Source: Mobula hypostoma
Taxonomy: Eukaryota
NCBI RefSeq assembly: GCF_963921235.1
Contig: NC_086097.1
Coordinates: forward strand, 75,950,001-76,014,000
Length of the DNA: 64,000 nucleotides
Direction: 5' to 3'
Shown here: positions 3,103-52,794 of the stretch, piece after piece
Position numbering within the stretch: position 1 is the stretch's first letter
Layout of the letters: the number at the start of each line of letters is the position of its first letter
Notes under the pieces: generated by a model
Database searches by the model: none
What the model was told of the DNA's origin: nothing
The model's input: only the letters and a program-made list of their open reading frames with translations
Made by a program: the position numbers and the translations under genes

Positions 3103-4676
3103 CAGTGCCTTGAAAAAGTATTTAGCCCCCACAACTATTTTCACATTTTGCTGTCTCATTTTCTAAATTTAAAATACTGAAGTGGGTTTTTTTTTGAGCT
3201 AAACTACAAAACATTATGTATCATGTCAAATCAAAAGAAAAATTCCAAAACCTGCCAACAATTCACTAAAAATTAAAAACTAAAATTGAGAGGTTGAAAA
3301 AGTATTCATCCCCTTTGTAATTACTATGCTAACTTTCCTGAGGTGAAATAATGTATATTACCTACCAACTCACCCAATTTGTTGATGTAAAAAATTGGAG
3401 GATCACCTGTTTTCAATGAATTCATAAGAATAAATATCCCCTCTCTCTGAAAGGTCCAACAGTATGGTAGATTTTCAACAGACCAAACCAAAACGAAGAC
3501 AAAAGAGCATTCAAGACAAGTCAGAGAAATGATAATAGAGAAGTATAAAACTGAACAAGACCATCTCAAACATATCTCGGATTCAGTGCGATCCATTATG
3601 AAAAAGCAGAAAAAATATTAACATACAGCTATACTACCTAGGTCAGGCCCACCCCTCTAAAATTAGTCACTGGAGAAGAATGGTACTCATAAGAGAGGCT
3701 ACTGAGACACTAACATTTGCCTAAGCCGCAGAAGTCACTGGCTGCAACTGGATTTGAATTTCATGACTCCACAACCTCTAAGGCTTTGCACAAAAAAGGT
3801 ATTTATGAAAGAGTGACAAGGAAGAAGGTCTGACTAAAAATAAAACATAACCTTGTACATAAAAGCATTGCTTTGCAAAGCATCACTTACAAGATGAGCA
3901 AGAAAGTCTTGCGGTCAGATGGACTCAACATTGAGCAGTATGTGTGGCGTAAATCTAATACTGAATATCGGCCAAGTAACACCATCCCTACTGTAAAGCA
4001 TGGTGGAGGTAGCGTCATGCTATTGGGATGCTTTTCAGCAGCAGGGACTGGGAATCTGGTCAGATATGAAGATTAATGCTGCTAAACACAGAGAGATCCT
4101 GGATAAAAACCTGCCACCCTCTACCAAAAAGGTTAAACAGGGGTGGATGTTTGTCTTTCAGCAAGACAATGCCCCAAAGCACACTTTCAGAGCAACCATG
4201 AAGTGGCTTCAAATGAAGAAAATTGATGTCCTTAGGTGCCCAGTCAGAGTCCTGACCTTAACCGATCGATCAACTCTAGCAAGACCTGAAGATTGTTGTC
4301 CACTGTTGCTCCCCAACAAACCTGGCACAGCTTGAGCACTTTTGCAAGGAGGAATGGGCAAATCTTGCTCCATTATGTTGTGTAAAGATAAAAGACACCT
4401 ACCCAAAAAGAGTACTGACTGTAATAGCTGTGAGAGGTGGTCAACTAAGTACTGAGCAAAGGGGGGTGAATACTTTTGAACCGCTGTCATTTCAGTATTT
4501 GATTTTTTAGTTTTCATGCTTTACAATTTTCCCTGTTTTTTGAGGGGGTCTCTACTGTGAAAATAAGGAGCATGTGATTCACAAATAAAAATTCTCAGTT
4601 AAATTGATTAAAATTCCAGATTGTAATACTTGTTTATGTGAACAAACTGGGGATTGAATACTTTTTCAGAGCACTG
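3103..4676 (+). mobile_element. Full-length, inactivated Tc1-like (DD34E) DNA transposon, IR/DR type
   Basis: Ends TA|CAGTGCCTTGAAAAAGTATT ... AATACTTTTTCAGAGCACTG|TA, with inner direct repeats near 3293 and 4465. Transposase relics are [51 protein letters not shown] and C-terminal GSTKY* (stop ends 4455), with frameshifts and stops. Confidence 0.93.
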
Positions 4677-10030: not shown

Positions 10031-12255
10031 TGATCCTCTCATCAGACAATGTTATTAAAATCCCCAAAATGAGTCAAAGTTCAATTTTAAATTATCCAAC
10101 TATGGAGGTGGGTAGAAGGATAAAGACCAAGATTTCTTATCATCTATAATTGCATAACACAGTCCAAACCATTAATTACTCTGTGGTTATTGTCAGTTTA
10201 TCAGGAAGACTCTCCTTATCCAATTCACATAACCGAACGAAGGCTCAATCAAGTGAATTTGTAAAAAAATAGCAAATGCTGCTGCAATCAACCGACTGTA
10301 GTTGAAGGAGGGATACGAGCTGCAATTCGTTGAAATAGTATGAATGCAAGTAGATGATACCCCAATGAAGTGTGAAATTTTGGAGAAATGCAGACACGGG
10401 TTACAACTTAAACTTTGGACAGAGCAATCTAGATGGTGGTAGAAGTCAATGTTGCAGCATTATGTAAAGTGTGATTGACATACCACAGTGAGAAAGCCTA
10501 TCTGCCTGCATTAGATCCCAAAGATACTTTGAAAATAATATTAATGTTTTAAAAAAATGGCTACTTAAGGTTTTCAGCAGGTACTATTATTGTATAAAAA
10601 GTAGTAAAATCTGATTGGTACTTCAGAAATTGGCTTTTGTTTCATGCATGTCATCATCCTATAACTGAAAGAATCTTACCAGAACAGAAAGAAATGGTGA
10701 TCTTATTTTAATAGTTGAATAATACAAAGAAATGCTGTTACATTGAATACTACGGTAGTTATACACCCTGATAGGAATGTAAACACACATCCATCAAGTA
10801 GTCCAATCACAAAAAGACAAGGTACCTAACATTCTAAGTTTAAAGTTATGAAAATTCTTCATGAAACTAGAAGTTGAAAATTGTTTTAAAAATTTTTAAA
10901 TGTACTGTAGATTAAACCTTAAAGATTGAAATGATTAGGATGAAGTTTTGTTACCAATTTATTCAAAGGATTGATCTGCTATAATCTGTTTAAGATGGAA
11001 AAATTATATATTAACTGTTTATAAATTTTCTTCACAAGCACATTAACCAAATGGGATTATCTCTAAGTCCTGTGTTTATGATGCAAATGGCACAGGATAT
11101 TGGCACATTATGTTTTCTGGAACTCAGGGTAATGGAGGCGTAGTCTTGAACACCTGAGAGGATATTTGCTTCTATATTTAAATACCTCTGGGTATCATTG
11201 TGGACTGACAAAGATTTTCAAAAGAAGACAAATGGCAACAATGTCTAGGACAATTAATGTCTCCAACAGAGTTCTCTCATAAAACGTTTTATCTTCTATG
11301 TCCACCAAACCTTAGCCTGATTGGAATATGCTGCTTTACAATGCCATGGCACCACAATGCAGAAAATAATGGGGAAAGTGTTTAAGTAATTGTATGTGCT
11401 TTTTTTCTCCCTAGTGATAAACTATTTAAGGATAACCACCATTAAGCCTCACTGGAAGTTGGCTGAAGTATCAAAATATACAAAATAAAAGTGAACTCTG
11501 TGAGATGATCATACTGTATTTTCTCAAATCACTAGCATTCATTAGCTTGTGTCTGATTAACCTCTTTCCCTGACTTATGTGTGAACAAAGACAAGATTCA
11601 CAAATGTATTCCTGAATAGAACAGTTTCCATCCATTTTCCTCAGTAACTGCCCAGTACATAACAATTCTCTCAAATCTCAGACAAAATAAATCGTTGAAA
11701 CTCATATGGACACTGGTATTGAAGGAATAATCACAAAAATATTTCAATATTTTTCTCTAAATAGAGAAATAACTGAGTTTTTATCTTATTGAATAAAGTA
11801 CTTAATTTTAAATTTCCAGACATCGATTTTGTGTATAGTTAAGTAACAAATTGAATAAAATATCAATGCACTTCAATATTTTGGCTGTTACTTTTTTTTA
11901 AAGCCCACGTTATTCCTGTACAAGCTGACAAAGATGGTTTTAAACTGTCTATTAAAACAGTACCTTAAAATGAGAATATATCAGGGCTATTTACATTTTA
12001 TAAACCCATTACCTTTATTCCACAGAAACTAATAAACATTTTGTTATGGGCAGCTTATTCATATATGTAGAATGAAATCTAAAATGGATTAATAGTTATA
12101 AAATCAGGGAAAAAAAACATTAAAAATGCAACTGCTTCCAAAATAATTAAACAGCTATTGATTTAAAGATATCTGTTGTCTTGGGAAATGGTCTATTGAG
12201 GAGACTCCAATCTGCTAACAACAATGAGTTCCACTGTAACGAAAGTAAATCTTAC

Positions 12256-12430
12256 CAAAGGACTGAATGCAGGTCTCCAGTAGGTCATCTAGACTGGCCC
12301 CTTTAGATAGCTGACCAACAGACATCATGCTCACTCGAGTGATCGGAGCAAGGTTTAAGCTTGATATACTGTAGCTCGCTGTTTAGGAGCAGTGGCAACT
12401 TCAAGATTTCTGCATTCTTGCCGGGGTTTC
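12256..12430 (-). CDS. RASGRP1: RASGRP1 (RAS guanyl-releasing protein 1) exon 2, N-terminus and start of REM domain; frame discontinuity as written
   Basis: 12328-12256 translates [24 protein letters not shown](D), matching human RASGRP1 [26 protein letters not shown], and ends at a phase-1 donor TTTG|GTAAG. The acceptor tttcatcttccAG|G at 12431/12430 is followed by KPRQECR (human KPSHGCR). Confidence 0.93.
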
Positions 12431-15989: not shown

Positions 15990-16775
15990 TCCTATGTACA
16001 GAAAAAAATGACAGGTACGCCATTTCATCCAACAGAAGCATTTAAAGGCCCTGGAGTAGATAAAAATCTAGTTCTCGCATCTTCTGAGCTTGCTCAGGAG
16101 GATACTGTTAGAAAGCAGGGAAGCTTTGACGGAGGTTGAGAACCTGACCACCACTGAAAAGGAAACTAATTCCCTTAAAAAGGGAGGGATACTATCACAC
16201 TGGAAATACAAAAATATCTGTAATAATCTGTTGAATATGGAGAACAGTAAGATAGAAGGTGAGAATGGGGTGGATCTATTAGGAAGTCTGATAGGGAAGA
16301 GGGCATTTTTAGAACAGATGTATCAAAGAAAGTTAACATAGGTGAATGTAACTGAGTTGTAACAGAGTAGGTGGGAGAGAAATCAAAGCAGCTGAGGGAG
16401 TCAGCAATCTTGAAGCAAATTCTGATTATTGTCAGAAATGGGGATAGAGGAACTCAGGCGAGAAAGTAAAAGTAGGGGGTATTGTCGTTTGCTAGCTGAG
16501 TTGTCAATGTTTTTCCAATTATCATCAAGAACAGGAAATGTATGAAGCTTTCATCAATATGCAAGAAAAAGAGTCAAGAGAACTCGAGTAAGGTTGGAAC
16601 AAAAATGTTCATTTCCTGTGAAAAAGCAAACTTAACTACAACTCATGTGTTCCAATGGCAGTAACTTTTAATTGGAGGAAGTGAGTAGAGTAACAGGAGA
16701 AACTGTTCATTCAATGAACAAGTTCAGTTAGGAGAATTAGAGTAGTGAGAGACATCTGTTTTGGCCTTCTTTCAA
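15990..16775 (-). mobile_element. Old Penelope-like element RT fragment
   Basis: The minus strand near 16640-16750 reads TTLILLTELVH*MNSFSCYSTHFLQLKVTAIGT, matching the PLE RT motif LLRLAELVLTLNNFSF.SSHFLQ.KGVAMGT. Confidence 0.7.
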
Positions 16776-33429: not shown

Positions 33430-35960
33430 ACATCATTGAGTTATATAGCATAAAAATAAAGTCTATGTCAACCAATTTGCCTGCCTGAGCTACTCCCATT
33501 TGGCTCATATCCCTTTAGACGAGGGGTCGCCAACCCATTGATCACGATCAACCGGTCGATCTTTGAGACTTTCCCAGTAGATCCCGAAGAAAAATCAAAA
33601 ATAAATACACAAATACTGTTGTAATGCGAGCATTATAAAAGTAAGTAATACTAATTAGGATAATGGTAATATATCAATATTTTCACTAAAAAGCTGTTTG
33701 TAAAGAGCGATTGTTTCTGGGTTGCGGGGGTTTAGTTCCGTTCTGCCTAGTGCGCATGTGTATAGTTCCCCCGCCATGCACCGTAGCCTGTGCTGCATCA
33801 AAGTGACCAATTAGATTAAGTAACAGTACAGACCGTCGCAAAAATCCATATACGGCAGTGTCCCCAACCTCTGGGCCGCGAAGCATGCAGGGGTGCAGCG
33901 GTAGTCGGGATGCACACAGCACATCTTTAAGAAAAAAAGCCGAAATAAACAAGCTAATTAATGAGGTGAATGTCGGCTCAGATCAGAGGCGACGCAATCG
34001 GTACTCGCTCGTGATACCCTGATATCATGGCGGAGGCTCCACAAAAGACGGCGAAAACGTACAAATTTCATCCAGAGTGGGAAGAGGAATTTCTGTTTAC
34101 CTTGGTGAAAGACAAGTGTGTATTATGTTGTGCCACCAAACACAAGCACTGACTAAAAGAGGGAATCTGGAGCGGCACCGTAACACCAACCACCAGAAAT
34201 TTAAAGACACCTACCCCCCAAATAGCGCAATTCATCCTAGGAAAGTTGAGCTGAAATCTGGGTTGAAGGCCCAGCAATCGTTTTTCACAAAACATGCTGC
34301 TCAAAATAAGGCTGCTATTGAAACATCATTTCATGTAAGTCACCTTTTGGCTAAACACAAGAAGCCTTTTACAGATGACGATTTATTCAAGGAAGCAATG
34401 GTCATTACCGCAGAGACTGTTTTTAATGACTTTAAAAACAAAAATGTCATCACAACCGCAATACATAATATACCGCTTGGCCCTGCAACAGTGACAAGGA
34501 GGGTAGAGTCACTGTCAAGAGGACGTGGATATTTTTCACTACAGTTCGATGACTCCCTGGGTGTAATGCAAACAGCTCAGCTTGTTGTATTTGTCAGAAT
34601 GGCTTTCCAGGATTTTACAACAAAGGAAGACCTCCTCACTCTTTTGCAACTAAAGGAAAGAACGAGAGGTGAGGATATTTACAATGAGCTTAAAAAATAT
34701 GTCCATGAAAATGACATCCTCATTCATAAACTGGTGGCACACACTACTGATGGGGCCGAGCAATGCTTCTTCGGCGTAAAGCATTTCAGCACGAAAGGTT
34801 TCATAGGAACGCTCTACCCTAGCGGGGGAAATACGAGACAGTTGGCAACCCTACACCTCACAGACTGTCTCAGACTGGTTGTCTGTAGTTATGAGCCAAA
34901 TTTCAGGGAACTAGCAGAAAGTATTCAGCCCCAGTCATCACACTGAGTGCAACTGTCAATTTTTATTCATTTATTTTTTGTGTTGAAATAAAATTAAATA
35001 ATGAAACTTAGAATTAAAGGTGTGAAGTATTGTAATATTCTTAAAGAAAGACAGCTATGGCCTGTTTGATATGCTAGTTACAGTGTTTTCTTGTTTGAAT
35101 TAATTTGAAAGTTTGACAAAAGTATTTTGTGTAATTCAAATACAATTCGCCCAAATAAAAGGCCTCAAATTGGAAGTACAATCTGAGCTGTTTTTTCTCT
35201 AAACGATTTAGTAGGTAGATCTTACCTTTCACTGAGGTCGAGGTAGGGGATCTTGGGCTTAAAAAAAGTTGGTGACCACTACTTTAGACCTTTCTTATCC
35301 ATGTTCTGGTTTAACTATTTCTTCTGCCAACTTGTTCCATGTACACACCTCTCAGGGAAAATGCCCCTCAAGTCTCCTTTAAGTTTCCACCCCTTCTCAC
35401 CTTAAACCCATGCCCTCTAACTTTAGAGCCCCCTACTAGAGGGAAAAATACTGTAGCCATTCACTTTATCTATGCCATCATGATTTCAAATATTTCTATA
35501 AGATCACTCCTCAACCTCCTTTGCTCCAGGGGGAAAAAAGCCCAGCCTATCCATTCTCTCATTAAATCTCAAGCCCTCCGGTCCTGGCAAGATCTTTGTG
35601 GATCTTTTCTGCATCCTTTCCAATGTAATGACATCCATTCTATATCTGGGCCTCCGGAAATGCACACAATACTCCAAGTGCAGTCTCAGCAACATCTTGT
35701 ACAATTGTAACACGACATCTCAAATCTTGTACTCAGTGTCCAGACCAACAAAAGCAAGCGTGCAAATACTACCCTCACCATCCTGCCTATGTTGCCACTT
35801 TCAGGGAACTATGTACTTAGACAGTAAATGTCAGGACCCTGAAAGTGTATTGAACAGCACTGTGGTTCAATACTCTTCAGGACCCTGACATTTACTGCCC
35901 AAGTCCTGCTCCGGTTTAACTTCCCAAAATGCAATATTTCACACTTATTCAAGTTAATTT
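33430..35960 (-). mobile_element. CR1 3' portion split by the hAT (33430-33520 and 35282-35960)
   Basis: MLQLYKMLLRLHLEYCVHF...LERMQKR; the CR1 3' sequence catatccctttagac/ctttcttatccatg is continuous across the hAT. Confidence 0.8.
33521..35281 (+). mobile_element. Internally deleted hAT (Buster group, GTF2IRD2/SPIN-like transposase)
   Basis: 8-bp TSD CTTTAGAC (33513-33520 and 35282-35289) and TIRs GAGGGGTCGCCAAC / GTTGGTGACCACTA. The transposase runs from ATG 34027 (MAEAPQKTAKTYKFHPEWEEEFLF..KCV, frameshift, MLCHQ..NLERH) through KPFTDDDLFKEAM, YFSLQFDDS and TTDGA, then jumps to C-terminal LTDCLRL...QPQSSH* (34946). Confidence 0.95.
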
Positions 35961-48778: not shown

Positions 48779-49727
48779 TTGTTGTGCTGTTGCCTTAAAG
48801 TTTCATGCATCATGCCATCAAATAGTGTCCTCTCAGACAAGGATGAATTTACTTTTAAATAAAAATGTTAAGAAAAAAACTTAAGGTGAAGTTTGAATTA
48901 TATTTTCTGACTTAATTTGTGAATGTACCATAAAAATAAAATCACAATTTATTTCTCTACAGATCATTTGCCTAGTTCCAGTTCTGTTTCAGTTTGCTTT
49001 GATTATTTGATGAGATGCAAACGATTCAGTCATTTACAAATGAATTCATGTTACTGTTAATATCTCTCCACAACAAGATTATAAATTGGCAATATTGAAA
49101 GCTATACCGATAAAAGTTTCAAATCTAGCTACTTTCTGCAGTCCGTTGTCCAGAGAGTCATCAAGTTTAATACGCTGCTAAATTTAATTTGCTTTTCTCC
49201 ACATTCAATTATTTACTTATGAAGGATTTGGATGAGGGTATAAGCAGACAATACTGAACTTATCACCAGTTTACATGCCACTCAATTTTCATTTCAATTG
49301 TATAAAAGGAGGAAAATAAAATCAGGTGTATGATGCCCAATCAATGTCAATCATTTCACACTACAAGTTAAAACGGTTAGTTTCTGAAACACAGTGCTTT
49401 GTGCACACGCTGCCACTCAGTCTTCACCCGAGTAACAAAGGTTCTGGATAGCATGCACGAGAAGGATGCTAGCTTTTCTTGTTTTCCCTACTCCAAGAAG
49501 GCATTGTAGGAATGTTGTGACTGTAATTGAAGTCGCCGGAGAGACTCTGAAGCTGGTGACACAGAAGTCTTTAATTGTCACAACAAGCAGGCATCATTCT
49601 GGACTCACTCTTGGTGGAGGCTCTTAACCTCAAAGTACATCATATTTTTATACCCTTAAGGTCAATGATAACGGTAGGTGATTCAATACAGTTTCAATAG
49701 TTACAATGACATCATTTACTTTAATAC

Positions 49728-49901
49728 AACACACACAAAATGCTGGAGGAACTCAGCAGGCCAAGCAGCATCTATGGGAAACAGTACGCTCAACTGTTTA
49801 CTCTTTTCTATAGAAGCTGCCTGGCCTGCTGAGTTCCTCTAGCATTTTGTGTGTGTTGCTTGGATTTCCAGCATCTACAGATGTTCTCTTTTTTATGATT
49901 G
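49728..49901. mobile_element. Palindromic Penelope-derived mini-element inserted in the 3' LTR
   Basis: 14-bp TSD ATTTACTTTAATAC (49714-49727 and 49902-49915); about 58-bp inverted arms (49728-49786 / 49799-49857); absent from the 5' LTR. Confidence 0.9.
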
Positions 49902-50319
49902 ATTTACTTTAATACTTCGGGTTGACAATGCTTCCTTCGAATTATAGATCTACACTGGGAGATCTGAATGTTCAAATACCTTTGCTAATTGCAAGCTTCC
50001 CTGAATTTATTTTCAGTAGTGCAAATTACTTAAATACAGAGCTTCCTGGATTGCTACGGGGCAATTAGCATAACCCCATGGTTACCATTTGCAAACCATA
50101 TATCTTCCTCTTGGTCCAGTTTAACTTCAATTTACTACTCGCTATTTACTATAACAACTGAAGACTGGTTCCACTTTAAATTAATATCTGCTATATTCAT
50201 ATCACTCCAGAATATTTCCTAACACACTCTCCTCTTGGCCCCTGCATAGAAATTTACTGCAGGAAGGCCAAACTTTAAGCAGGGTCTAATTAAGTAGGAT
50301 AGCAAAAATCCCTTCCCCA

Positions 50320-50372
50320 ATATCTACACCATCATCTATATCTATATCTATATCTATACCATCTACACCATC
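50320..50372. repeat. (ATCTAT)n microsatellite with flanking ATCTACACCATC repeats
   Basis: atctatatctatatctatatctata. Confidence 0.8.
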
Positions 50373-50404
50373 ATCTCTAACTGGCTACCTACAACATTAA
50401 ACAG

Positions 50405-51025
50405 AGGTGGCAACATGGCAGACATGTACCCCAGTTGCTGACACACAAAGAAAATACTATGTGTCTTTGCAGCAGGTATATCCACAACAGCTACTTTACA
50501 ACTTCTCTTCCTCCTCCTCTCCCCAGCCCATGATATTATTGCCGGGTAGGTCAATCCCACCGCCATCCCCAAATCTGACACTTTCAGGAAGACTGGATCA
50601 TCCCTCCCTGGATGGTCCAACCCTGAGTTTTCCTCATTCCTCAATATTTATGCTCTGCAATCCATTGCAAGGCTCACCATCTCTCTGAACTACTGACATT
50701 ATTGTCCTCCAGCTACTCTCACCTCCTCTCAGTCACTGCCTCACTTCACCCTTAAGAAAGTAATATTGCTACTTTGTTACTTCCCAACTAGTTGCCCATG
50801 TACCATCCCACATTCCCTGGGCCATACTGCCCCACATATTACTCTGCATTTCGCTTTTACCAACACTTGCATATCTTTTGGGTGGACTTGGTGCATTTTA
50901 ATCATTTCTTTGAGCTTACATCAGAATTCTAAATTTCCACCAGTGACTTTAAGTGAGGGCAGCTCTGACAAAATGCTCTGCTTTTTCCAAGGGCTGAAGG
51001 GATTGTGAAGGGCTTCATATCCCTG
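50405..51025 (-). pseudogene. Degenerate retroviral gag (capsid and nucleocapsid) fragment
   Basis: YEALHNPFSPWKKQSILSELPSLK...LKEMIKMHQVHPKDMQVLV (CA N-terminal-like), SWRTIMSVVQRDGEP (major-homology-region-like), FFVCQQLGYMSA (decayed CCHC knuckle); stops and frameshifts. Confidence 0.7.
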
Positions 51026-52794
51026 TTGTTTTCCTTCCCATAGGAAAGTTTATTACTCCAAGTTTCAAACTTATTCTTAAAACACACAAAACACATTCAC
51101 AAACAAATATAATACTGTACTGTATCCTGATCCTACCCGTACCCCTCTGGCATTCCAAACGGTCAGTAAACACCTCTCGCAACTGGTGACCCTGTCTCAT
51201 CAAGCTACTCAAAATTGTCCGGTAGCTGGTCGCTTAAACAAACACGCACACACAGACACACCCCATGTTTATATCTACCAGTTCAGCTCTGTCGTGTTCT
51301 TAGATACTTCATGATTCTGTGGTTGTTGACTTGAACAGATCTGAGCATGGGTGCTGCTCTTAAAAATACTCCCTTGGACCGCTCAACTTATTGGCCACAC
51401 AGTGGGTCACGAATGTATCCCAGACAAGACCCCAAACGTTGTGACTGTGACTGAAGTCACTGAAGAGACACTAAAGCTGATGATATAGAAGCCTTCATTT
51501 GTTACAATAAGCAGGCATCATTCTGGAGACATTCAGTAGAGGCTTACAAACCCAAAGTACATCACACTTTTATACCCTTAAGGCCAATGATAACAGAAGG
51601 GAATTCAATACTGTTCCAATAGTTACAATGACATCATTTACTTTAATACTTCGGGTTGACAACACTTCTGTTGAATTACATATCTACAGTGGGAGACACC
51701 TTTGAATGTTCAAATACTTTTGCTAACTGCAAGCTTCCCTGAATTTATTTACAATGGTGCAAATTACTTAAACTCATAGATGCCTGGATTGCTGCAGGGC
51801 AATTAACACAACCCCATTGTCAAATGCCAATGCAAGTGCCCCATGGTCACCAGTTTGCAAACCATATCTCTTAGTTTGTGAGCTGGTTTAACCTTAATTT
51901 ACTGTTTACAATTTATAATAAGAACTGAAGAATGGTCTTGCTTGAATTAATATCTGCTATATTAAAGAAAAAACAAGTTTTAAACAAAGTCTGCAAACAC
52001 AAAACTCTGGCACCTCCAGCCATTCGGGATTATTGTGGTTAAATAGTTCAAGTGCTCAGAGATCCAATTGGAACCAAAGGTCAAACAGGCCAGGAGATGC
52101 AAGGGAGAGAAATTGCTCAAATGTGTAGCAACAAACAGAATGTTGGAGGAACTCAGCTCAGGCAGCATCTGTGGAGGCTTTCTGATGAATGTATGAAACG
52201 ATTGGCATTCAAGAATTGATCAAAACCAACATAGCCTCTAGTTTTAATTAGTTATTTACTTTTCATCAGGCCTTGCTAAATGTACTGTCAAAGACGGCAC
52301 CCCAAATCCCCGATCAGGGATACCTACAATATCAGTATAATGATGTCAAAAATTGCTGCATTTTAAAACCATACAATCAAAGCACAATGGCTTGATTAAG
52401 AAGAACTTATGAAAAATGCACACGAATGTGCACCTAAATCTATAAATGACAGATTATGATGTAACTAGGAATACATTTCATTAAAAGTAGTGTCTGCCAG
52501 CTTCTGGGTTTTGGAAAATCATGGCCTTGAGTTCTAAGGATCATACAGTGGGAGAAATAGTGTGTTTAAAAGTGTGGGCCAGTCATGGTGTAGCAGTGAG
52601 GGGGGAAGTAAAAATCATTTATCTGAAATTTTGATGCTCAGTGAAGATTACAGGATAAGCAAAGATTATAGGCAATGGGTGCAGCAGAAAACTGTGTGGG
52701 TTGTTCAAATGCCAGCAGGTGAATATGGAAATATCATTGGATTTTGGAGAATATTAAAAGCAAATGTTGATCATTATCCAATATCAACATTCAT

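What the first reader, a model, noticed from the sequence alone, without database searches (positions are those of the whole stretch)
49513..51963. Ancient gag-only retrovirus-like provirus with a tRNA-Pro primer site upstream of RASGRP1
Seen: two LTRs with TATA boxes, a PBS adjacent to the 5' LTR, a PPT adjacent to the 3' LTR, and only about 1.2 kb of internal DNA with capsid-, MHR- and CCHC-like relics and no recognisable pol or env. The LTRs differ at 16 of the first 91 aligned bases by hand count, so the insertion is old. Known: PBS-Pro and PFS...H.P.D capsid motifs typify gamma/epsilon-like retroviruses. Inference: an undescribed non-autonomous ERV family of cartilaginous fish, oriented in the same sense as RASGRP1.
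Basis: partly seen in the sequence, partly recalled or inferred. Interest (0 to 1): 0.7.

Follow-up and report, generated by a model that had tools for sequence, protein, structure and literature searches.

The report
Deleted copy of snakehead-like endogenous retrovirus
This is an old, dead viral insertion that has lost most of its middle; it is one of many copies of an envelope-less retrovirus family in a cartilaginous-fish genome, likely related to snakehead retrovirus, which likely spread mostly as crippled copies that borrowed their copying enzyme from complete ones.

Summary
The provirus is real: two LTRs 16% apart, TATA boxes, a tRNA-Pro-type primer site, a purine tract and a broken gag, on the same strand as a RASGRP1 exon 37 kb away. 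It is not a gag-only family. Its deletion joint is shared by 0 of 39 other hits, and contigs from three other organisms match the gag end at 95-99% and leave the window sequence exactly at that joint, so the loss probably came after insertion. The same genome holds partners with the same LTR and primer site that carry protease, RT, tether, RNase H and integrase, with no env hit. Their RT falls outside the gamma/epsilon clade; by hand count it is closest to snakehead retrovirus. LTRs end TGT...ACA and relatives show 5-bp target duplications. The better story is the family: two lineages (Pro and Leu primer sites), each with its own amplified RT-less form that keeps gag-pro or gag-pro-integrase. 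Snakehead-like ERVs are already known in cartilaginous fish. No effect on RASGRP1 is shown. Dfam and Repbase could not be searched.

The parts
51437..51963 (-). 5' LTR, outer ~27 bases missing; TATA box at 51568-51574
51417..51434 (-). Primer-binding site, tRNA-Pro type, 15 of 18; two of the three differences are CpG-type decay
   Evidence: tRNA-Pro complement recalled; 13 matching places in the genome
51011..51416 (-). Leader and 5' end of gag, homologous to relatives (66-76% DNA)
50426..51010 (-). gag relic: capsid (both domains, with major homology region) and half of the first zinc knuckle; several stops and frameshifts
   Evidence: tblastn 40% to family Gag; family Gag profile and model match retroviral capsids
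50425..50426 (-). Deletion joint: rest of nucleocapsid, protease, pol and most of the 3' tail are absent
50237..50425 (-). Last ~200 bases of the family's 3' untranslated tail, with a short simple repeat at 50322-50382
50227..50236 (-). Polypurine tract
   Evidence: same place in relatives
49513..50224 (-). 3' LTR, TGT...ACA ends; TATA box at 49646-49652, ATTAAA at 49570-49575
49728..49901 (.). Later insertion in the 3' LTR: palindromic, very high-copy SINE-like repeat with a 14-bp target duplication (49714-49727, 49902-49915)
12221..12382 (-). Context only: open frame holding the nearest recognisable RASGRP1 coding exon, 37 kb from the element

Best explanation
This is a dead, internally deleted copy of an abundant endogenous retrovirus family whose complete members carry gag, protease, RT, tether, RNase H and integrase but show no env, and which likely belongs to the snakehead-retrovirus-like (class III, clade Huo) group. 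Shown: the anatomy, the partners, the private joint, and presence at the same site in other organisms. Inferred mechanism: an LTR-driven RNA was primed by tRNA-Pro, copied inside the germ cell and integrated with a 5-bp duplication; complete copies supplied RT in trans to RT-less subfamilies (Pro lineage: gag-pro kept; Leu lineage: gag-pro-integrase kept), which dominate the copies sampled. This copy inserted as a longer element and lost its middle by a later DNA deletion in the lineage leading to this genome. It has since only decayed.
For: Family size: 1548 and 2549 first-look candidates for internal part and LTR, 40 scored each (not copy numbers). Pol-bearing copies with the window's LTR and Pro site: L126+L151 and L136; their RT pieces group with the Leu-lineage RTs inside one clade, UFBoot 100 with P0001. 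Domains. Class I clade (gamma plus epsilon, including this genome's env-bearing ERVs) is separate, UFBoot 100. Hand count of L086 RT over 100 columns against rows of the Wang and Han supplement: SnRV 57, HERV-L 46, FFV 45, MuLV 44, Loki 44, WDSV 42. RNase H: MLV/XMRV E 1e-29 against foamy 1.5e-05. No env: 0 of 75 family loci hit by this genome's class I Env; 0 of 6 tail frames hit Pfam; integrase to LTR is 0.8-1.5 kb. RT loss: 0 of 20 gag-picked loci hold the tether; 8 of 20 share a 3' break at 3749-3750 of reference copy L088; 10 of 13 Pro-site loci show no RT. Private deletion: 0 of 39 other rows span the joint; contigs of 3 of the 5 runs laid (X15, X16, X18) match at 95-99% and run on for 99-299 unlike letters from 50426. 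Orthology: X15 and X17 contigs bridge both LTR-flank junctions.
Against: No SnRV, ERV-L, foamy or Loki sequence could be placed in the tree; the SnRV call rests on a hand count, and the deep nodes of the non-class-I group have UFBoot 59-73. The Gag model's top viral match is an epsilonretrovirus Gag (WEHV-2), the Pro site is typical of class I (recalled), and the RNase H reads by eye much like WDSV's. The letters that the other organisms' contigs hold beyond 50426 were not shown, so an insertion there in those genomes is not excluded; X17 and X19 listed no such piece. Only 40 of 383 candidates were scored in the joint search. A divergent env would be missed by the probes used. Missing domains in old copies may reflect 10-kb cut-offs or the 65-70% identity to the reference. 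Trans-mobilisation is inferred from shared breaks, not tested.
Confidence: 0.78

Rival explanations
1. The short form is itself a mobilised gag-only subfamily, like zebrafish Bik-1/Bik-2.
For: All signals needed in cis are kept. Other gag-only copies exist (L047, L053). Gag-only families are known (bioRxiv 2024.03.25.586437, passages).
Against: 0 of 39 rows share the joint; L047 and L053 break elsewhere and belong to the Leu lineage; orthologous contigs leave at the joint; the joint cuts the zinc knuckle.
Confidence: 0.07
2. The family is class I (epsilon-like), or a recombinant with class I gag, primer site and RNase H on a class III RT.
For: Pro primer site; Gag model best matches WEHV-2 Gag by E-value and MLV capsid by TM-score 0.50; RNase H best matches MLV.
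Against: RT outside class I; only 1 of 39 Gag homologues hits Gag_p30; two zinc knuckles; 5-bp duplications and TGT...ACA ends; an MLV-type RNase H group covers all retroviruses other than lenti, foamy and Loki (PMC7947760).
Confidence: 0.08
3. It is an env-less lokiretrovirus or Odin-like element, the first in cartilaginous fish.
For: Dual RNase H without env is the Odin layout (PMC9040795); RT shares the first conserved block with Loki (25 of 53 by hand); integrase relatives are annotated NYNRIN-like.
Against: Second RT block 19 of 47 to Loki against 29 of 47 to SnRV; RNase H is not of the foamy/Loki group; automatic NYNRIN-like names also sit on class I Pols.
Confidence: 0.04
4. The relic has been kept as a regulatory element or alternative promoter of RASGRP1.
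For: Same sense as the gene; present in several organisms; 50426-50611 differs at 1 of 186 letters in X15 and X16 while flank contigs differ at about 6%.
Against: X18 differs at 8 of 152 there; the LTRs decayed by 16% and took an insertion; 37 kb from the first known exon; one low-divergence stretch among many examined; sample carry-over not excluded.
Confidence: 0.05

Closest known systems
SnRV-like clade / clade Huo (PMC6001957, PMC4977317, PMC12193657: passages read); CmiERV lineage I of elephant shark (PMC4422223, part 1 of 2 read)
   Same: RT closest to SnRV among the reference rows counted; class III-type LTR ends; relatives in shark, turtle, eel and cyprinid records, fitting the wide host range of Huo; the clade is already known in cartilaginous fish.
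   Different: CmiERVs were defined by having env and the lineage I copy spans about 9.5 kb; complete members here have about 5.8 kb between LTRs, no env hit, and most sampled copies lack RT. CmiERV sequences were not compared directly.
ERV-L and XtERV-S (PMC8278194, passages read)
   Same: Largely env-less class III; TGT...ACA ends; a Leu-type primer site in the sister lineage (ERV-L's Leu primer is recalled).
   Different: RT 46 of 100 to HERV-L against 57 to SnRV; no dUTPase hit in the Pol frames scanned; Pro site in this copy's lineage.
Zebrafish BHIKHARI Bik-1/Bik-2 (bioRxiv 2024.03.25.586437, passages read)
   Same: LTR-gag-LTR layout in a fish.
   Different: Bik is a recently active lokiretrovirus family with intact Gag frames and a role in development; this is a single decayed deletion product of another clade.
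Non-autonomous ERV derivatives mobilised in trans (mouse ETn/MusD, MaLR, IAP deletion types: recalled; cattle ERV in PMC10924933: search listing only)
   Same: Shared internal deletions amplified with help from complete copies.
   Different: Here two lineages lost RT separately, one keeping integrase and one not.

Membership tests
Retroviridae (ERV) | Tether plus second RNase H in Pol | tested here: met
   RT_RNaseH and RNase_H in one frame of L081; tether and RNase H covered in L136
Retroviridae (ERV) | RT closer to retroviruses than to Ty3/Gypsy | tested here: met
   Foamy E 2.6e-57, MLV-type 1e-48, Ty3 2.6e-26; trees
Retroviridae (ERV) | Retroviral capsid fold and CCHC nucleocapsid | tested here: met
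   Model of L049 Gag, pLDDT 86, matches HTLV-1 and MLV capsids; zf-CCHC
Retroviridae (ERV) | env gene | tested here: not met
   No hit in 75 loci or in tail frames; env-less ERVs are known
Class I (gamma/epsilon) | RT inside the class I clade | tested here: not met
Class I (gamma/epsilon) | 4-bp target duplication (recalled) | tested here: not met
   Read from printed ends: 5 of 5 in L055, L056, L084, L088; 4 of 5 in L047, L057, L060, L036, L037, L142; L085 fits 4 bp; other old copies unreadable
SnRV-like clade (Huo) | RT groups with SnRV in a tree | tested here: inconclusive
   No SnRV sequence available to the tree; hand count favours SnRV 57 of 100 against 42-46
SnRV-like clade (Huo) | Class III LTR ends TGT...ACA | tested here: met
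   criterion from PMC8278194
Lokiretrovirus / Odin | RNase H of the foamy/Loki group | tested here: not met
   criterion from PMC7947760
Lokiretrovirus / Odin | Env like paramyxovirus fusion protein (PF00523) | tested here: inconclusive
   No match in the genome, but the control was silent too
Gag-only non-autonomous family | Several copies share one deletion joint | tested here: not met
   0 of 39 rows
Any family in Dfam or Repbase | LTR or internal match to a library consensus | not testable with these tools
   No such library held

The most novel reading that the evidence does not exclude
The gag-end segment of this orthologous provirus (50426-50611) has been held under constraint as a RASGRP1 regulatory element, and its family is the elasmobranch counterpart of an env-less retroviral superspreader that switched primer tRNA and twice spawned RT-less parasites of itself.
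Probability: 0.06. Interest if true: 0.6.

Novelty: new member of a known kind. Interest (0 to 1): 0.27.

Why it matters
The locus itself is ordinary debris. The family is of use to paleovirology: SnRV-like ERVs in cartilaginous fish were known from few env-bearing copies in elephant shark, and here is a high-copy, env-less one with two primer tRNAs and two separately amplified RT-less forms, old enough to be shared at one site by organisms 6-10% apart. It also shows that Pro primer sites and MLV-like capsid motifs misclassify such elements.

Tried and rejected
An apparent target duplication at the stated ends was rejected once the true LTR start was found; the first tally was offset by one base and redone, where the Leu-type start was offset by four and the duplications were read from the printed ends. 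Loki/Odin reading rejected (and hand count). Search of viral contigs with the RT: 7 stretches matched, none confirmed. PF00618 search did not list the window's exon. Exon 1 of RASGRP1 not found by motif or CpG scan over the window plus 30 kb on one side and 20 kb on the other. Sequencing runs: no RNA holder listed, so expression is untested; both lay calls went to DNA-type runs. Rfam: 7 matches, all under the curators' scores, six on the palindromic insert. L082's 1.7-kb extra is a LINE-like insert by eye, no env hit. Tree rows left out: P0171 and P0006 as too short; L083, L099, P0200, P0173, P0174 dropped. Five look-ups of earlier findings gave nothing on this family. PMC3358877 is not held; only its title was seen in a reference list. 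Supplements of bioRxiv papers were not seen and may list such repeats.

Full report
Observation. The element lies on the minus strand. The LTRs differ at 16 of the first 91 columns and at 79 of 492 overall, K2P 0.184. Comparison with other copies moves the true LTR start to TGTTAG at 50224 and shows that the 5' LTR has lost its outer ~27 bases. A 174-bp palindromic repeat with a 14-bp duplication sits in the 3' LTR. The primer site matches the tRNA-Pro complement (recalled) at 15 of 18; 13 places in the genome match a pattern of LTR end plus this site, none the reversed control. The internal frames hit no Pfam family but match the Gag of relatives at 40%. A RASGRP1 exon lies at 12221-12382 on the same strand; exon 1 was not located.

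The family. The window's genome gave 1548 first-look candidates for the internal part and 2549 for the LTR, of which 40 each were scored. The best gag hits mostly belong to a sister lineage with another LTR and a Leu-type primer site, 4.1-4.5 kb between LTRs. Their frames encode Gag with zinc knuckles, protease and integrase but no RT domain. Searching with the closest database Pol (P0001) brought 15 loci at 43-64% identity that carry RT, most with tether, RNase H and integrase, and about 0.8 kb from integrase to the 3' LTR. Copies with the window's own LTR and Pro site that carry pol also exist: L126 continued by L151, L136, and part of L131.

Class. The RT matches foamy virus (E 2.6e-57) better than MLV-type (1e-48) and Ty3 (2.6e-26) among solved structures; the RNase H matches MLV/XMRV (1e-29) far better than foamy (1.5e-05), which argues against the foamy/Loki RNase H group of PMC7947760 (main text parts 1-2 of 4, supplement parts 1 and 68 and passages read). 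In RT trees of 43 and 46 rows the family, including Pro-lineage pieces, groups with Pols whose records or clusters are named from Mustelus, Heterodontus and Pimephales (UFBoot 92-96) and stays outside the class I clade (UFBoot 100), which holds this genome's env-bearing ERVs. No named SnRV, ERV-L, foamy or Loki protein was available for the tree. I therefore counted identities by hand between the L086 RT and rows of that supplement over two blocks, 53 and 47 columns: SnRV 57, HERV-L 46, FFV 45, MuLV 44 (its insert skipped), Loki 44 (Pma for block one, Aro for block two), WDSV 42. LTR ends TGT...ACA fit class III (PMC8278194, passages) and most readable duplications are 5 bp. The Gag model (pLDDT 86, 39 rows) has a retroviral capsid fold but does not tell the class: HTLV-1 and MLV lead among solved structures, WEHV-2 among predicted ones. 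Gag homologues with names come from turtle, whale shark, eel, minnow and a characiform; the closest is a Mobula record at 87%. This fits clade Huo (PMC6001957, passages), known in elephant shark (PMC4422223, part 1 of 2; PMC4977317, passages).

No env. This genome's class I Env hit 0 of 75 family loci; six tail frames from two copies gave no Pfam hit. A search for a Loki-type Env was silent in the control too. A very divergent env in unsampled copies is not excluded.

RT-less subfamilies. Mapped on copy L088, 0 of 20 gag-picked loci hold the tether; 8 of 20 resume at 3749-3750 and 5 of these leave at 2128-2130, keeping integrase. In the Pro lineage 10 of 13 primer-site loci show no RT, and L043, L054, L137, L138, L141 and L142 share a jump from about 1850 to an island at 3660-3860 and on to about 4700, keeping gag and protease only. 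Shared breaks at many loci imply amplification after the deletion, hence RT supplied in trans; this step is inference.

The gag-only form. The window's joint lies at 50425|50426, inside the first zinc knuckle. None of 39 other rows spans it (40 of 383 candidates scored). L047 and L053 are gag-only with other breaks. Five runs of other organisms were laid. X15 and X17 have contigs that bridge both LTR-flank junctions at about 6-10% difference, so the insertion is shared. X15, X16 and X18 have contigs that match the gag end at 1 of 186, 1 of 186 and 8 of 152 differences and run on unlike the window from 50426; no listed piece crosses the joint. The onward letters were not shown. The simplest reading is a deletion after insertion.

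Age. At 0.5e-9 per site per year (assumed for catshark in PMC10699275, part 2 of 4) the LTRs give 184 million years; at 1e-9, 92; at 2.2e-10 (PMC4422223), 418. The rate is not known, so 'old, probably around a hundred million years or more' is all that stands.

Novelty. Seven paper searches listed no description of this family; two ray genome preprints (passages) give only repeat totals. Dfam and Repbase were not available. Env-less class III ERVs, non-autonomous derivatives and gag-only fish ERVs are all known kinds, as is the dual-RNase-H, env-less layout of Odin (PMC9040795, part 1 of 4). Verdict: a real but ordinary dead copy of a probably unnamed member of a known clade. Interest 0.27.

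Noticed in passing
window 50426-50611: Contigs of X15 and X16 differ from the window at 1 of 186 letters while flank contigs differ at about 6%; chance, constraint and sample carry-over were not told apart.
   Followed up: partly
window 49728-49901: Palindromic insert made of two head-to-head halves of a very abundant SINE-like repeat, with a 14-bp target duplication; single halves occur near 52130 and 56780.
   Followed up: partly
L061:4218-6395: Family copy whose internal part is cut by an LTR in inverted orientation.
   Followed up: no
L084:8645-8841: A short inverted duplicate of LTR end plus primer site faces the normal one.
   Followed up: no
L096-L100: A separate epsilon-like ERV family with env and long open pol frames in the same genome.
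   Followed up: partly
L044:6196-8190: Copy with an exact Pro primer site but no match to the window's LTR, and a partial RT: LTR, primer site and internal part may have been reshuffled between lineages.
   Followed up: no
window 3834-4335 and 33686-34946: Relics that read by eye like a Tc1/mariner and a hAT transposase; names recalled, not tested.
   Followed up: no
window 16072-16341: An 89-residue plus-strand frame rich in charged residues, of unknown origin.
   Followed up: no
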